This document shows positions 6,346 through 9,210 of a stretch of DNA of 32,971 nucleotides, one piece after another. The notes beneath the pieces are model-generated. The model searched no databases. It saw only the letters and a program-made list of their open reading frames with translations, and had not been told where the DNA came from. The DNA lies in the IMG/VR virus record IMGVR_UViG_2563366843_000007; one strand, given 5' to 3'. Positions within the stretch are counted from its first letter, which is position 1. Every line of letters starts with the position of its first letter. Made by a program: the position numbers and the translations under genes. Source of the stretch: a virus. Lineage: Duplodnaviria; Heunggongvirae; Uroviricota; Caudoviricetes.

Positions 6346-6373
6346 CATAAAAAACCCGCAATGAATGCGGGTT
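6346..6373 (-). terminator. Rho-independent terminator downstream of the repressor gene
   Basis: Minus-strand hairpin ACCCGCA-UUCAU-UGCGGGU followed by a U-run, 6 bp after the repressor stop. Confidence 0.6.
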
Positions 6374-6378
6374 CTGAC

Positions 6379-7053
6379 TCAGTCTAAGTATTGATGTATT
6401 TGTGAAACTTTACCTTTAATGGTGTAACCACCATTCAGTTCGATGGGTTTGTAAAGCGGATTCAGTGACAACAGATAGATGTTTGGTCCGTCAATCGCAA
6501 CTTTTTTTAGTGTTACGTTTGGCGTTCCTTCCAATTGGATTAAGATTATTTTTCCCACCAGTTCTCTAATGTTACTTGAGCATGGTGTGATCAGCACGGT
6601 AGATCCGTCGGGGATGGTTGGGAGGCCGTTAGAGTTTGTCATCGCATCTCCCTCAACATGCAATAAAAAAGAGTTTTCAGCGGTTTTTGTCATGACATCA
6701 ACCCAATTCTTAATACCAGGAATCTCGGTTACTGGACAACTCATATCCCAATAACCAGCCTGTTCCCACGTTAAAACGGGCAACCGGGCGATGTTGTCAC
6801 TAATGTAAAGGTACTGATTCAGACGCAGATCATCGGTTTTATCGTGACCGTCCTTTCCATAAAGAATCCATTCAGGAGATTTGGAAAGCAATTTTGACAG
6901 TAGATGTAAATTCTCACCGTCAGGTTTTGAAGAGCCATTTTCCCATTTTGTTACGGATACACGAGATATGCCGATTGCTTTCGCAACCTGCTGTTGGGTT
7001 AATCCTACGTCTTTTCGACGATTCCGAATACGTTCGCTGATAGTGTTTTTCAT
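6379..7053 (-). CDS. CI/C2-type prophage repressor (N-terminal HTH, C-terminal S24 LexA-like peptidase)
   Basis: N-terminus MKNTISERIRNRRKDVGLTQQQVAKAIGISRVSVTKWENG... is an XRE-type HTH resembling P22 C2; the C-terminal half is assigned as S24 self-cleaving peptidase fold from overall resemblance to C2/CI (catalytic Ser/Lys not individually identified). Start at 7053 keeps both OR operators intergenic; the longest ORF extends to 7152 (TTG). Confidence 0.85.
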   Translation of the reverse strand: MKNTISERIRNRRKDVGLTQQQVAKAIGISRVSVTKWENGSSKPDGENLHLLSKLLSKSPEWILYGKDGHDKTDDLRLNQYLYISDNIARLPVLTWEQAGYWDMSCPVTEIPGIKNWVDVMTKTAENSFLLHVEGDAMTNSNGLPTIPDGSTVLITPCSSNIRELVGKIILIQLEGTPNVTLKKVAIDGPNIYLLSLNPLYKPIELNGGYTIKGKVSQIHQYLD

Positions 7054-7054
7054 G

Positions 7055-7115
7055 TAACCAATGTTACTACCAAGTGATGTTGCTATGGTTGACATCGATA
7101 TGTAACTATTGTTAC
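7055..7115. promoter_or_regulatory. OR operator/promoter region with two GTAAC-N4-GTTAC operators (7055-7068, 7102-7115)
   Basis: GTAACCAATGTTAC and GTAACTATTGTTAC, 47 bp apart, between the divergent repressor and cro-like genes; a TTGACA hexamer at 7089-7094 lies between them. Confidence 0.55.
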
Positions 7116-7144
7116 CCTCCTGCTCGAAATAACAGGAGAGTTTT

Positions 7145-7360
7145 ATGTTCAAAGATGATGTTCTGCGCTATTTCAAAAAAAAGCGACTAGTAGCTGAGGC
7201 TCTTGGAATTTCACATGTGGCTGTTGTGCGGTGGAAAGCAGTTATTCCCAAACTTCGCGCAATGGAACTGGATGAAATTACTAACGGTGAATTGAAATAC
7301 AACCCAGAACTTTACAAGAAGCAGGATAGCACCTCGAACGAAGGAAAGAATGATTCATGA
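7145..7360 (+). CDS. Cro/YdaS-like HTH transcriptional regulator
   Basis: 71-aa ORF divergent from the repressor; HTH-like segment RLVAEALGISHVAVVRW; GGAGAG Shine-Dalgarno. Confidence 0.7.
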   Translation: MFKDDVLRYFKKKRLVAEALGISHVAVVRWKAVIPKLRAMELDEITNGELKYNPELYKKQDSTSNEGKNDS

Positions 7361-7782
7361 AAATCAAGCATGAACACATCCGCATGGCGATGAATGCCTG
7401 GGCGCATCCGGACGGCGAGAAAGTACCGGCTGCGAAAATTACCAAAGCGTATTTCGAACTGGGAATGACGTTCCCGGAACTGTATGACGATAGCCATCCG
7501 GAAGCCCTGGCTCGCAATACTCAGAAAATATTCCGCTGGGTGGAGAAAGACACCCCTGATGCTGTTGAAAAAATTCAGGCGTTGTTACCAGCGATCGAAA
7601 AAGCAATGCCACCTCTGCTGGTGGCCCGAATGCGCAGCCACAGTTCAGCCTATTTTCGGGAGCTGGTGGAGACGCGGGAACGACTGGTGAGGGACGCTGA
7701 TGATTTTGTCGCAGTGGCGATCGCTGGTTTCAATCAGATGAATCGTGGTGGTCCGGCGGGAAATGCCCTGGTGATGCACTAA
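7357..7782 (+). CDS. YdaT-like protein (CII functional analogue family)
   Basis: 141-aa ORF beginning MKIKHEHI..., as I recall for Rac YdaT; overlaps the cro-like stop (ATGA). Confidence 0.6.
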   Translation: MKIKHEHIRMAMNAWAHPDGEKVPAAKITKAYFELGMTFPELYDDSHPEALARNTQKIFRWVEKDTPDAVEKIQALLPAIEKAMPPLLVARMRSHSSAYFRELVETRERLVRDADDFVAVAIAGFNQMNRGGPAGNALVMH

Positions 7783-7805: not shown

Positions 7806-8753
7806 ATGAGCAGCAAGCTTCATGGTCTTGTCTGGGAAGGGTGCGCCTTCACCGGCATGATCTTATCCAGGGTGGCAGTAATGGCTCGCCTTGCAGATTA
7901 CAGCAATGACGAAGGTGTGTCATGGCCTGCAGTGGAGACCATTCGTCGTCAGATTGGGGCAAAGAGTGAATCAACGGTTAAAGCTGCGATAGCGGAACTG
8001 GAAAAGAACGGCTGGCTGACGAAGGAGGAACGTAAGGTCGGTGGGCGTAATGTAAGCAATATCTACCGTCTTAATGTGGAAAAACTAGAAGCAGCAGCAG
8101 CGGCGGCGCGTGAGGCATATAAACCGAAAAGAAAAATTAGCCAGGCAAAAAATGACCCGTCAAATATTGCCCCCTCAACGGTTGACCCCTCAAATTTTGA
8201 TGGATCAACCATTGATAAAAAACAACCTGATAGGGGGGCGATGGTTGGCCCCGATCCGTCAGTATTAAAACCTGATCCGTCAGATAAAAGATCTTTTCGT
8301 CCGGAAGCTTCGCAACCGGACTCGCAGACGACTGAACAGGATTTTTTAACCCGACACCCTGACGCGGTTGTGTTCAGTGCGAAAAAACGCCAGTGGGGCA
8401 GCCAGGAAGATTTAGCGTGTGCGCAGTGGATCTGGGGACGAATCGTGAGTCTTTACGAGCAGGCTGCCAGCGATGATGGCGAAATCATGCGACCGAAAGA
8501 ACCAAACTGGACTGCATGGGCCAATGATGTGCGCACAATGCGGATGCTGGATGGCAGAACTCACAGACAAATTTGCGAAATGTTTGGTCGGGCACAGCGG
8601 GATCCATTCTGGGTAAAAAACGTCATGAGCCCGTCAAAGCTTCGCGAAAAATGGGATGAGCTGGTTATTCGTCTGGGGCGTTCGCCTGTACAGCGTTGCG
8701 TGAATCACATTTCTGAACCGGATACCGAAATTCCGCCGGGCTTCAGGGGGTAA
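7806..8753 (+). CDS. Replication initiation protein (O-like; N-terminal HTH, C-terminal DnaT-like domain)
   Basis: 315-aa ORF; N-terminal winged-helix region; a repeat-encoded linker (DPSNIAPSTVDPSNF...PDPSVLKPDPSDK); C-terminal region typical of DnaT-like initiator domains. Confidence 0.75.
   Translation: MSSKLHGLVWEGCAFTGMILSRVAVMARLADYSNDEGVSWPAVETIRRQIGAKSESTVKAAIAELEKNGWLTKEERKVGGRNVSNIYRLNVEKLEAAAAAAREAYKPKRKISQAKNDPSNIAPSTVDPSNFDGSTIDKKQPDRGAMVGPDPSVLKPDPSDKRSFRPEASQPDSQTTEQDFLTRHPDAVVFSAKKRQWGSQEDLACAQWIWGRIVSLYEQAASDDGEIMRPKEPNWTAWANDVRTMRMLDGRTHRQICEMFGRAQRDPFWVKNVMSPSKLREKWDELVIRLGRSPVQRCVNHISEPDTEIPPGFRG
8153..8287. repeat. Iteron-like direct repeats (candidate ori) within the O-like gene
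   Basis: Core GAYCCNTCA repeated at 8154, 8184, 8253 and 8274 with 21-30 bp spacing, plus a degenerate copy near 8203 and an A/T-rich flank. Confidence 0.5.
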
Positions 8754-8793
8754 GTGTTTATTTCAGATCATGAGGTAATTTTCAGGAGGACTT

Positions 8794-9210
8794 GTGGCAA
8801 AAGTTTTTACTTCCGAACAGCGGGAAGAAGTGAAGGCGCGCATTGTGGAACTGGTACGCAGAGATGGTCGGAAAACGCGTAAACAACTGGAAAATGAAAT
8901 TGGGGTGACGAGACATCTGATAGAAGTTCTGACGAAAGAGCTGGTAGCCAGTGGTGTTGTATATGGTTCAGGGTATGGAATATTCCCTTCAGCGCAGGCG
9001 CGTAAGGACTGGATAAAAGCCATCGAAAAGATGTCGAAAGCGGCGGTGAAGAAAAAGAGCGATCCTGACCTGATTTATTCATTACCAGATGGAGAGATAC
9101 GCCGCTACGACAGACACCTGAACATAATCTGTCGCGAGTGCCGGAAGAGTGAGGTTATGCAGCGAGTGCTGGCGTTTTATCAGGGGAAATTTCAGGAGGT
9201 GATGCTGTGA
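8794..9210 (+). CDS. Hypothetical protein (138 aa), possible winged-helix protein of the replication module
   Basis: GTG start 4 nt after a GGAGG core; occupies the position of a P/DnaC-type helicase loader but has no ATPase motifs. Confidence 0.5.
   Translation: MAKVFTSEQREEVKARIVELVRRDGRKTRKQLENEIGVTRHLIEVLTKELVASGVVYGSGYGIFPSAQARKDWIKAIEKMSKAAVKKKSDPDLIYSLPDGEIRRYDRHLNIICRECRKSEVMQRVLAFYQGKFQEVML

What the first reader, a model, noticed from the sequence alone, without database searches (positions are those of the whole stretch)
8153..8287. Iteron-like repeats inside the O-like replication initiator gene (candidate ori)
Four copies of GAYCCNTCA at 21-30 bp spacing, plus a degenerate fifth, encode a repetitive linker in the protein and are flanked by an A/T-rich stretch. 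This is the arrangement of the lambda origin, which sits within the O gene.
Basis: partly seen in the sequence, partly recalled or inferred. Interest (0 to 1): 0.45.

Follow-up and report, generated by a model that had tools for sequence, protein, structure and literature searches.

The report
Replication origin inside prophage initiator gene
The short repeats inside this E. coli prophage's replication-initiator gene are very probably the initiator's own binding sites, i.e. the phage origin of replication laid out as in phage lambda; this is a well-supported but expected feature of a lambda-like phage.

Summary
Four exact GAYCCNTCA copies lie at 8154, 8184, 8253 and 8274. They belong to a larger set: four 15-bp tandem units (8154-8213, two of them degenerate), one 23-bp palindrome (8184-8206), and a distal pair GATCCGTCAG (8253, 8274).

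All repeats lie in the predicted disordered linker (aa 109-171) of a 315-aa O-like initiator. Its N-terminal domain is a winged helix (Pfam HTH_36, not Phage_rep_O). Its C-domain is homologous to lambda O (38% identity, hhalign 99.6%). The repeats start at gene nt 349; lambda's iterons start at nt 349.

- **DNA-level conservation:** in 67 distinct linkers, mostly from different Enterobacterales species, the distal site keeps its synonymous positions (GAT 100%, CCG 94%, TCA 100%, GTA 97%). The commonest codon at invariant N-domain residues averages 51%.
- **Linkage to the N-domain:** the 10-mer occurs in 82/84 genes with this N-domain, whichever C-domain they carry, and in 1/49 with other N-domains.
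- **Surroundings:** the four least stable 40-bp stretches of the gene and the window's densest GATC cluster flank the repeats.

Verdict: a lambda-style origin within the initiator gene, with a different DNA-binding domain and iteron sequence. It is a new member of a known kind. Binding and origin activity are untested.

The parts
7806..8753 (+). O-like replication initiator gene (315 aa)
   Evidence: ORF. phrog_391 'replication initiation O-like', E 8.5e-113. 100% identical to a gene annotated 'helix-turn-helix domain-containing protein' in E. coli 52F4, in a prophage next to ompW.
7806..8117 (+). Coding region of the N-terminal winged-helix DNA-binding domain (aa 1-104), the presumed iteron reader
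   Evidence: Pfam HTH_36, aa 25-71, E 5e-8. AlphaFold2 gives H-H-H-H-beta-beta-H with pLDDT 70-88. Foldseek finds MarR/PadR/ArsR-type wHTH folds. No hit to Phage_rep_O or TIGR01610.
8130..8318 (+). Coding region of the disordered inter-domain linker (aa 109-171); it contains all the repeats
   Evidence: AlphaFold2 pLDDT below 50 for residues 109-171.
8154..8213 (+). Proximal array: four 15-bp tandem units with cores at 8154-8162, 8169-8177 (degenerate), 8184-8192 and 8199-8207 (degenerate)
   Evidence: TRF period 15; codon-level reading. Copy number varies among homologs, from 3 to about 9. Across species the core Ser codon is TCA in 77% of cases, against 15% elsewhere in the same genes.
8184..8206 (.). 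23-bp palindrome GACCCCTCAAA-T-TTTGATGGATC, formed by units 3 and 4
   Evidence: Minus-strand motif hit at 8198-8206. The same element is kept in divergent homologs: GACCCCTCAAA-A-TTTGAGGCGTC in 733R5 and Klebsiella phage 1, GACCCGTCAAA-A-TTTGATGCGTC in SfII.
8253..8262 (+). Distal repeat 1, GATCCGTCAG (contains GATC); the most conserved DNA element of the linker
   Evidence: Across 67 distinct linkers: GAT 100%, CCG 94%, TCA 100%, following GTA 97%. The commonest codon at invariant N-domain residues averages 0.51.
8274..8283 (+). Distal repeat 2, GATCCGTCAG (contains GATC), 21 bp after repeat 1
   Evidence: GAT 90%, base 3 of the core codon A 100% (Ser/TCA in about 81%), across 67 linkers. 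Pair spacing is 24 bp in 59, 18 bp in 6 and 21 bp in 2. The mosaic breakpoint with other N-domain types lies at query positions 479-481, i.e. window 8284-8286, directly after this repeat.
8117..8156 (.). A-rich, low-stability stretch on the left flank of the repeats
   Evidence: AT 0.70, nearest-neighbour dG -47.4 against a gene mean of -56.1 +/- 3.2. It is absent from SfII-type homologs, so it is probably not essential.
8193..8232 (.). A/T-rich stretch between the proximal array and the distal pair
   Evidence: AT 0.72, dG -46.2, at the least-stable 0.5% end of the whole window. The A6-7 run is kept in homologs.
8259..8298 (.). A/T-rich stretch that holds distal repeat 2; candidate unwinding region
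   Evidence: AT 0.68, dG -46.6. In 66 of 66 homologs the 45 nt after distal repeat 1 are more AT-rich than the gene (mean 64% against 48%). The sequence ...AAAAGATCTTTTCGTCCGGA... resembles the stretch to the right of the iterons and A/T tract in phi80 (AAAAGATCTTCGTCCGAGA) and lambda (AAAAGATTATTCGTCAGAGA).
8203..8293 (.). Cluster of four GATC (Dam) sites at 8203, 8253, 8274 and 8290
   Evidence: This is the only place in the 33-kb window with 4 GATC in 100 bp; the window average is 1 per 308 bp.
8322..8675 (+). Coding region of the lambda-O-type C-terminal domain (aa 173-290)
   Evidence: BLASTP against lambda O: 38% identity, E 3e-27. hhalign 99.6%. Against phi80 gp15: 37% identity. AlphaFold2 helical domain with pLDDT about 90.
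8691..8750 (+). C-terminal tail QRCVNHISEPDTEIPPGFRG, similar to the C-terminus of host DnaT
   Evidence: 14 of 20 residues identical to E. coli DnaT aa 160-179, E 1e-7. A weak NCBIfam DnaT hit covers these 20 residues only. Disordered in the model.

Best explanation
The repeats are the iterons of the prophage's replication origin, placed inside the initiator gene as in lambda.

Proposed mechanism (all inferred):
1. The initiator's N-terminal winged-helix domain binds the GAY(C/G)CNTCA(R) units. These are four proximal 15-bp units, one pair of which forms a 23-bp palindrome, plus the strongly conserved distal pair GATCCGTCAG.
2. The assembled nucleoprotein complex destabilises the interleaved and adjacent A/T-rich DNA (8193-8232 and 8259-8298).
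3. The lambda-O-type C-domain then brings in the host helicase-loading machinery. No P- or DnaC-like gene follows the initiator gene here, so recruitment may run through the DnaT-like C-terminal tail.
4. The four GATC sites suggest that Dam methylation and SeqA modulate firing.

Shown here: the anatomy; homology of the C-domain to lambda O; equivalent position in the gene; DNA-level purifying selection on the repeats; and their linkage to the N-domain type. Inferred: binding, unwinding, helicase recruitment and Dam control.
For: 1. **Homology and position.** The C-domain is homologous to lambda O and phi80 gp15. The repeats start at gene nt 349. Annotated or experimentally known origins start at nt 349 (lambda), 365 (phi80) and 353 (P22).
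2. **The repeats lie in a disordered linker** (AlphaFold2), where protein constraint should be weak.
3. **DNA-level selection.** Across 67 distinct linkers from about 60 species, the core Ser codon is TCA in 420 of 543 cases, against 214 of 1407 elsewhere in the same genes. The spacer Ser codon is TCT in 70%, against 13%. Distal site 1 keeps all four third positions at 94-100%. The commonest codon at 28 invariant N-domain residues averages 0.51.
4. **Specificity linkage.** GATCCRTCAG occurs in 82 of 84 unique genes with this N-domain: 38 of 39 with the lambda-O-type C-domain and 44 of 45 with another C-domain (Phg_2220_C in the one tested, L130). It occurs in 1 of 49 genes with other N-domains. 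The recombination breakpoint lies right after the last repeat.
5. **Sister N-domain types carry their own arrays at the same place.** One has five 23-nt repeats at 23-bp spacing. That is not a multiple of 3, so the repeats are read in different frames and must be DNA-level features.
6. **A/T-rich, low-stability DNA flanks and interleaves the repeats**, here and in 66 of 66 homologs.
7. **The densest GATC cluster of the window lies here**.
8. **Isolated phages deposited as complete genomes carry this gene with no second replication gene annotated beside it** (SfII, SfIV, HannyBb). The module is therefore presumably sufficient.
Against: - No binding or replication data exist for this family in the literature I could search.
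- The geometry is atypical for lambdoid iterons. The core is 9-11 bp, the period is 15 bp (about 1.4 helical turns), only one unit pair is a dyad, and the two groups are 69 bp apart.
- The A/T-rich tracts are moderate (68-72% AT).
- The left A-rich flank is missing in SfII-type relatives.
- The repeats and the N-domain lie within about 150 bp of each other, so co-inheritance alone would give some linkage.
- The nonsynonymous positions (D-P-S) are conserved too, so a protein-level role for the peptide motif is not excluded.
- DnaA-box-like sites are not enriched.
- The prophage in this window may be defective, so the origin may not fire here.
Confidence: 0.75

Rival explanations
1. The repeats are only a by-product of a low-complexity, slippage-prone flexible linker (DPS/SDxSK pentapeptides). 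They have no function as DNA.
For: - The repeats lie in a predicted disordered linker.
- Copy number varies between relatives, as expected for replication slippage.
- The amino-acid motif D-P-S is itself conserved.
Against: - Synonymous positions are conserved far beyond background: 94-100% against 51%.
- Ser codon choice depends on position: TCA in the core and TCT in the spacer.
- The sister type repeats at 23 bp, out of frame.
- Within the window alone, P = 0.0028 given the protein.
Confidence: 0.04
2. The conserved DNA elements are functional but are not initiator sites. They could be Dam/SeqA or host-factor sites, a transcriptional roadblock or autoregulatory operator, or a conserved 'joint' that promotes exchange of modules between initiator genes. 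The true origin would then lie elsewhere.
For: - Both distal repeats contain GATC and are spaced 18-24 bp apart, and the GATC cluster is the densest in the window.
- Several relatives carry a DNA methylase gene just downstream.
- The mosaic breakpoint abuts the last repeat.
- The same N-domain plus repeats is joined to two different C-domains.
Against: - Conservation covers the whole 13-mer GATCCGTCAGTAA, not just GATC.
- The motif family is repeated 4-9 times per gene and tracks the N-domain type.
- Its place matches proven origins in lambda, phi80 and P22.
- A recombination joint would not need multiple direct repeats or A/T-rich neighbours.
- Dam control and initiator binding are not mutually exclusive, as in oriC and the P1 origin (established knowledge).
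Confidence: 0.14
3. The conservation acts at the RNA level: an mRNA structure or an antisense/sRNA target that controls translation or stability of the initiator message.
For: The RNA fold of 8140-8300 is somewhat more stable than shuffles (z = -2.2; 3 of 200 shuffles fold at least as well).
Against: - That fold rests on a C-run/G-run pairing (8169-8175 with 8232-8239), read from the alignment, that is specific to the window's clade and absent from SfII-type relatives.
- The conserved elements are direct, not inverted, repeats.
- No Rfam family matches.
- No promoter-like site for an antisense transcript was found.
Confidence: 0.03

Closest known systems
Phage lambda origin (ori-lambda) within gene O
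   Same: - The origin elements lie inside the initiator gene, between the DNA-binding N-domain and the C-domain, starting at the same gene position (nt 349 in lambda, nt 349 here).
- The C-domains are homologous.
- An A/T-rich tract lies next to the repeats.
- The sequence right of it is similar (AAAAGAT..TTCGTC..GA).
- The half-site even resembles lambda's (CCCTCAAAT in lambda iteron 3 and in window unit 3).
- The repeats encode a dispensable-looking linker. In Stx phages, extra iterons add residues to O (PMC7466680).
   Different: - The N-domain is HTH_36, not Phage_rep_O/TIGR01610.
- Lambda has four 18-19-bp dyad iterons at 20-24 bp. Here there is a 9-11-bp core, a 15-bp period, one dyad and a separate distal pair.
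- No P gene follows.
- The protein has an extra DnaT-like tail.
Phage phi80 gene 15 origin and P22 gene 18 origin
   Same: Same architecture and same place in the gene: phi80 has four gp15 sites at 21-bp spacing from nt 365, and the P22 rep_origin starts at nt 353. Each specificity class has its own iteron sequence, as found here for each N-domain type.
   Different: Both have Phage_rep_O N-domains and a dedicated partner gene (gene 14, P-like; gene 12, DnaB-like). P22 gp18 has no detectable similarity to the window protein.
Stx-phage (933W, P27) origins with six iterons
   Same: Iteron copy number varies between related phages, with matching insertions in the initiator's linker. The iterons nearest the A/T-rich tract are the best bound (PMC7466680). 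Here, too, the pair next to the A/T-rich tract is the most conserved.
   Different: Those are true lambda O/P systems with lambda-type iterons and have been studied experimentally.
Iteron origins of plasmids (pSC101, R6K, P1, F) and oriC
   Same: Multiple direct repeats read by a winged-helix initiator, an adjacent A/T-rich unwinding element, and a cluster of GATC sites as in oriC and the P1 origin (established knowledge; GATC count).
   Different: Plasmid iterons are 17-22 bp, lie outside the rep gene and are read by two-winged-helix Rep proteins. DnaA boxes are usual there but are not enriched here.

Membership tests
Lambdoid origin within the initiator gene (ori-lambda type) | The repeat array lies inside the initiator ORF, between the DNA-binding domain and the C-terminal domain | tested here: met
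   All repeats (8154-8283) fall in the disordered linker, aa 109-171. The gene offset of 349 nt matches lambda 349, phi80 365 and P22 353.
Lambdoid origin within the initiator gene (ori-lambda type) | Four or more iterons of about 18-19 bp with internal dyad symmetry, spaced about 20-24 bp | tested here: not met
   The core is 9-11 bp and the proximal period is 15 bp. Only units 3 and 4 form a dyad. The distal pair is spaced 21 bp here and 24 bp in most relatives.
Lambdoid origin within the initiator gene (ori-lambda type) | An A/T-rich, easily melted tract next to the iterons | tested here: met
   The four least stable 40-bp windows of the gene lie at 8048-8298 (AT 0.68-0.72). In 66 of 66 homologs the distal 45 nt are more AT-rich than the gene.
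Lambdoid origin within the initiator gene (ori-lambda type) | The initiator's N-terminal domain belongs to the Phage_rep_O family (PF04492 / TIGR01610) | tested here: not met
   Only HTH_36 is found. There is no TIGR01610 hit, whereas lambda O hits it at 5e-39. hhalign aligns the C-domain only. Lambda, phi80 and P22 all hit PF04492.
Lambdoid origin within the initiator gene (ori-lambda type) | The initiator's C-terminal domain is homologous to that of lambda O | tested here: met
   BLASTP 38% identity, E 3e-27. hhalign probability 99.6%, E 6.7e-25.
Lambdoid origin within the initiator gene (ori-lambda type) | A partner helicase-loader or helicase gene (P, DnaC-like or DnaB-like) lies directly downstream | tested here: not met
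   The next gene is DUF977/Ren-like. Close relatives in O103:H2 (L006) and L007 do have an ATP-binding, DnaC-like gene there. SfII and HannyBb do not.
Lambdoid origin within the initiator gene (ori-lambda type) | The initiator binds the repeats, and the segment supports initiator-dependent replication | not testable with these tools
   This needs EMSA or footprinting and a replicon assay. No published data were found for this family.
Iterons as cognate sites of a specificity domain (general iteron criterion) | The repeat sequence co-varies with the DNA-binding domain type and is conserved as DNA | tested here: met
   The 10-mer is in 82 of 84 genes with this N-domain, whatever the C-domain, and in 1 of 49 genes with other N-domains. 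Other N-domain types carry different arrays at the same place. Synonymous positions are kept at 94-100%, against a 51% background.
phrog_391 / HTH_36 'O-like' phage initiators (SfII, SfIV, HannyBb and many Enterobacterales prophages) | Full-length similarity to the family profile | tested here: met
   phrog_391: E 8.5e-113 over residues 1-315. 984 homologs at E <= 1e-5.

The most novel reading that the evidence does not exclude
This could be a P-independent class of O-type initiators. A winged-helix (HTH_36) domain would read short GATC-containing iterons whose occupancy is gated by Dam methylation and SeqA. Helicase loading would run not through a phage P or DnaC protein but through a C-terminal peptide that mimics the tail of host DnaT, plugging the origin complex straight into the host replication-restart primosome.
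Probability: 0.2. Interest if true: 0.6.

Novelty: new member of a known kind. Interest (0 to 1): 0.33.

Why it matters
- **Annotation.** It would place the origin of a very common family of Enterobacterales prophages and temperate phages. The gene matches in 3882 of 5426 complete E. coli genomes, over at least 80% of its length in 1515, and relatives occur in SfII/SfIV-type Shigella serotype-converting phages. Their replication modules are annotated only as 'helix-turn-helix protein' or 'primosomal protein I'.
- **Recognition rule.** It gives a simple 13-mer, GATCCGTCAGTAA, that marks this origin class.
- **Practical uses.** It would help in building replicons, reading prophage induction coverage data and understanding replication incompatibility between co-resident prophages.
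- **Concept.** It extends the lambda rule, that the iterons travel with the initiator's DNA-binding domain as one exchangeable module, to a second unrelated DNA-binding fold. It does not add a new principle.

Tried and rejected
- **Rac prophage oriJ.** K-12 YdaU is a DUF1376 protein, not this family. The literature search gave only passing mentions of oriJ, and a whole-word search for 'oriJ' returned an author name.
- **Membership of the phi80 gene 15 family.** This was suggested by the source name 'Replication protein 15' on one homolog. Only the C-domain matches, and the phi80 N-domain is Phage_rep_O.
- **P22 gp18.** No similarity.
- **DnaA boxes.** A single relaxed match at 8075-8083 is not conserved in relatives, and there is no enrichment (56 found, 58 expected).
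- **Known RNA family or promoter in the region.** None found.
- **Solved structures by sequence.** Nothing useful.
- **SfV genome paper (PMC134923).** Not held, so I cannot say whether that paper mentions an origin.
- **Stx 'Eru' replication-region paper.** It does not describe origins or repeats.
- **tRNAs.** None in the window.
Full report
**1. What is in the sequence**

The finding lies inside a 948-nt ORF (7806-8753, + strand, 315 aa). GAYCCNTCA matches exactly on the + strand at 8154, 8184, 8253 and 8274, and once on the - strand at 8198-8206. That is five hits in 129 bp, against 2.03 expected in the whole 33-kb window on both strands.

- The spacings are 30, 69 and 21 bp.
- The first group is a 15-bp tandem array (TRF, 8153-8200). 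Its four units are GACCCGTCAAATATT, GCCCCCTCAACGGTT, GACCCCTCAAATTTT and GATGGATCAACCATT, so two units are degenerate rather than one.
- Units 3 and 4 also form a 23-bp palindrome, GACCCCTCAAA-T-TTTGATGGATC (8184-8206).

The second group is a pair of identical 10-mers, GATCCGTCAG, at 8253 and 8274. In protein terms the repeats read DPSNI-APSTV-DPSNF-DGSTI ... GPDPSV ... PDPSDK. Conditional on that protein sequence, resampling synonymous codons gives four or more DNA matches with P = 0.0028. Six of the nine linker Ser codons are TCA, against 3 of 17 in the rest of the gene.

**2. The gene and its setting**

The neighbourhood is a lambdoid immunity and replication region:
- a LexA-family cI-like repressor (6379-7152, - strand);
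- a Cro-like gene (7145-7360);
- a YdaT/CII-like gene (7357-7782);
- the initiator gene;
- a DUF977/Ren-like gene (8794-9210).

The gene is 100% identical to one in a prophage next to ompW in E. coli 52F4. It matches phrog_391 'replication initiation O-like' end to end (E 8.5e-113). Pfam sees only HTH_36 at aa 25-71.

AlphaFold2, run with 21 homologs, gives four parts:
- a winged-helix domain, aa 1-104;
- a disordered segment, aa 109-171, with pLDDT about 30;
- a confident helical domain, aa 173-290;
- a disordered tail, aa 293-315.

Foldseek places the N-domain among MarR/PadR/ArsR-type winged helices.

The C-domain is homologous to the C-domain of lambda O (38% identity, E 3e-27; hhalign 99.6%) and of phi80 gp15. 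The N-domain is not. There is no Phage_rep_O or TIGR01610 hit, whereas lambda O, phi80 gp15 and P22 gp18 all have that domain. The protein is thus a different DNA-binding head on a lambda-O-type body. Every repeat lies in the disordered linker.

**3. Same place as proven origins**

| Element | Start within its gene | Source |
|---|---|---|
| Window repeats | nt 349 | |
| Lambda iterons | nt 349 of O | |
| phi80 gp15 binding sites | nt 365 | |
| P22 rep_origin | nt 353 of gene 18 | |

The DNA just right of the repeats (AAAAGATCTTTTCGTCCGGA) resembles the corresponding stretch of phi80 (AAAAGATCTTCGTCCGAGA) and lambda (AAAAGATTATTCGTCAGAGA). One half-site, CCCTCAAAT, is shared with lambda iteron 3.

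**4. Are the repeats conserved, and as DNA?**

Related genes were collected from phage records, viral contigs and a one-genome-per-species collection. They come from Erwinia, Edwardsiella, Morganella, Providencia, Proteus, Yersinia, Pantoea, Enterobacter, Kluyvera and others.

All genes with this N-domain keep the same layout. There is a variable number (3 to about 9) of 15-bp units, with consensus TCT GAC GCR TCA AAA or the window's GAC CCN TCA AAT NTT. These are followed by the distal pair.

In 67 distinct linkers:
- The core Ser codon is TCA in 420 of 543 cases, and the spacer Ser codon is TCT in 182 of 260. Elsewhere in the same genes these codons make up 15% and 13% of Ser codons.
- Distal site 1 reads GG(G)GATCCGTCAGTAA, with GAT 100%, CCG 94%, TCA 100% and GTA 97%.
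- Distal site 2 reads GATCC(A/G)TCAG, with base 3 of the core codon A 100% (Ser/TCA in about 81%).
- The pair is spaced 24 bp in 59 linkers, 18 bp in 6 and 21 bp in 2.

As a control for shared ancestry, I took 28 N-domain residues that are invariant in the same sequences. Their commonest codon has a mean frequency of 0.51, with a range of 0.32-0.79. Synonymous sites are therefore well randomised in these genes except in the repeats. The selection acts on the nucleotide sequence.

**5. Linkage to the DNA-binding domain**

blastn hits to genes with a different N-terminus begin at query positions 479-481, which is window 8284-8286, immediately after the last repeat. Among unique genes, GATCCRTCAG is distributed as follows:

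| Gene class | Genes with the 10-mer |
|---|---|
| This N-domain, lambda-O-type C-domain | 38 of 39 |
| This N-domain, another C-domain (Phg_2220_C in L130, the one tested) | 44 of 45 |
| Other N-domains, same lambda-O-type C-domain | 1 of 49 |

Within roughly 5.5-kb loci the 10-mer occurs almost only in the linker.

Genes with other N-domains carry other arrays at the same place:
- HannyBb-type genes have five 23-nt repeats (CATCNGGTCAAAATG...) at 23-bp spacing.
- A Trabulsiella relative has four listed copies at 23-bp spacing.
- Another type has seven copies at 21 or 24 bp.
- The same tool recovers the known phi80 sites.

A 23-bp period cannot be a protein repeat. This is the module structure expected for cognate pairs of initiator and iterons.

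**6. Surroundings**

The four least stable 40-bp windows of the gene are 8048-8087, 8117-8156, 8193-8232 and 8259-8298 (AT 0.68-0.72). They are about 3 SD less stable than the gene mean. The three most extreme, the ones tested, lie at the least-stable 0.5-0.8% end of the whole window. In 66 of 66 homologs the 45 nt after distal site 1 are more AT-rich than the gene (64% against 48%). The left A-rich flank is missing in SfII-type relatives, so it is probably not essential.

Four GATC sites (8203, 8253, 8274, 8290) form the densest GATC cluster in the window. Several relatives carry a DNA methylase gene just downstream.

DnaA-box-like sites are not enriched, and the one relaxed match nearby is not conserved. 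No Rfam family or promoter-like site overlaps the region. The RNA fold is only mildly more stable than shuffles (z = -2.2), and, as read, it depends on a pairing specific to the window's clade.

**7. Most likely mechanism**

By analogy with lambda (summarised in PMC7466680), the winged-helix N-domain binds the repeats. The resulting complex stresses the adjacent A/T-rich DNA, and the C-domain recruits the helicase loader.

In lambda, the two iterons next to the A/T-rich tract suffice in vitro (PMC7466680). Here the pair next to, and embedded in, the A/T-rich tract is the part under the strongest selection.

No P- or DnaC-like gene follows the initiator in this window, in SfII or in HannyBb, although some close relatives have a DnaC-like gene there. 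The last 20 residues (QRCVNHISEPDTEIPPGFRG) match the C-terminus of host DnaT in 14 of 20 positions (E 1e-7). This explains the 'primosomal protein I' labels on homologs. It also suggests, as speculation only, that the tail connects the origin complex to the host DnaB-DnaC loading pathway.

Binding, unwinding, recruitment and Dam control are all inferences.

**8. Rivals**

- **Pure linker or slippage artefact.** Contradicted by the synonymous-site data and by the out-of-frame repeats in sister genes.
- **Functional DNA element that is not an initiator site** (Dam/SeqA site, operator or recombination joint). Not excluded. It explains the multiplicity, the link to the N-domain and the match to proven origins less well.
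- **RNA-level element.** Unlikely, because the conserved elements are direct repeats and no conserved pairing was seen.

**9. Comparison and novelty**

An origin inside the initiator gene is textbook for lambda, phi80, 82 and P22, and for replisome-organiser genes of Gram-positive phages. Four things differ here:
- the DNA-binding fold (HTH_36 instead of Phage_rep_O);
- the iteron sequence and geometry (short core, 15-bp period, distal GATC-bearing pair);
- the lack of a dedicated loader gene;
- the DnaT-like tail.

I found no description of this iteron set in the searchable literature. The SfV genome paper could not be read, so prior mention cannot be ruled out.

I file it as a new member of a known kind. 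It fails strict membership of the ori-lambda family on N-domain family, iteron geometry and partner gene, but it very probably works like that family.

**10. Verdict**

Confidence that these repeats are the initiator-binding sites of the prophage origin is about 0.75. Interest is modest (0.33): a specialist would expect it. The strength and breadth of the DNA-level conservation and the P-less, DnaT-tailed initiator are worth a bench test.

Noticed in passing
window 8691-8750 (aa 296-315 of the initiator): The C-terminal tail QRCVNHISEPDTEIPPGFRG matches the extreme C-terminus of E. coli DnaT ([20 protein letters not shown]) in 14 of 20 positions (E 1e-7). It is disordered in the model and absent from lambda O and phi80 gp15. 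It may be a short motif that links the initiator to the host primosome.
   Followed up: partly
window 8754-9210 and related loci L002, L005, L006, L007: No P-, DnaC- or DnaB-like gene follows the initiator gene in the window, where a DUF977/Ren-like gene comes next, nor in SfII or HannyBb. Close relatives in E. coli O103:H2 and JNE141411 have an 'ATP-binding protein' (DnaC-like) gene at that position.
   Followed up: partly
L005 2349-2464 (phage HannyBb); L116 796-924; L109 2731-2890: Initiator genes with other N-terminal domains but the same C-domain carry their own repeat arrays at the same place. HannyBb has five 23-nt repeats and L116 four listed copies, both at 23-bp spacing and so out of reading frame. 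L109 has seven 24-nt repeats at 21 or 24 bp.
   Followed up: partly
window 8203-8293: Four GATC sites within 91 bp form the densest Dam-site cluster in the 33-kb window. Two of them lie inside the conserved distal repeats. Several related phages carry a DNA methylase gene directly after the initiator gene.
   Followed up: partly
window 8169-8175 and 8232-8239: A C-run and a G-run (GCCCCCT ... AGGGGGGC) form an imperfect inverted repeat that brackets the 23-bp palindrome and an A/T-rich stretch. It is present in the window's clade only and drives the mildly stable RNA/DNA fold (z = -2.2).
   Followed up: no
L130 and about 44 other loci among L122-L167: In many Enterobacterales species the same N-domain plus repeat module is fused to a different C-terminal domain; in the one locus tested (L130) it is Pfam Phg_2220_C, not the lambda-O-type domain. 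The break lies right after the distal repeats.
   Followed up: partly
window 6346-6439 (- strand): A weak Rfam hit to Trp_leader (26.5 bits against a gathering score of 41, E 0.027) overlaps the 3' end of the repressor gene (its stop-codon end, at 6379) and the DNA beyond it. It is probably chance.
   Followed up: no
whole window compared with L001: The prophage in E. coli 52F4 that shares the initiator gene at 100% identity has tRNA-Thr and tRNA-Gly genes about 8.5 kb downstream. ARAGORN finds no tRNA in the window, so the two prophages differ downstream.
   Followed up: no
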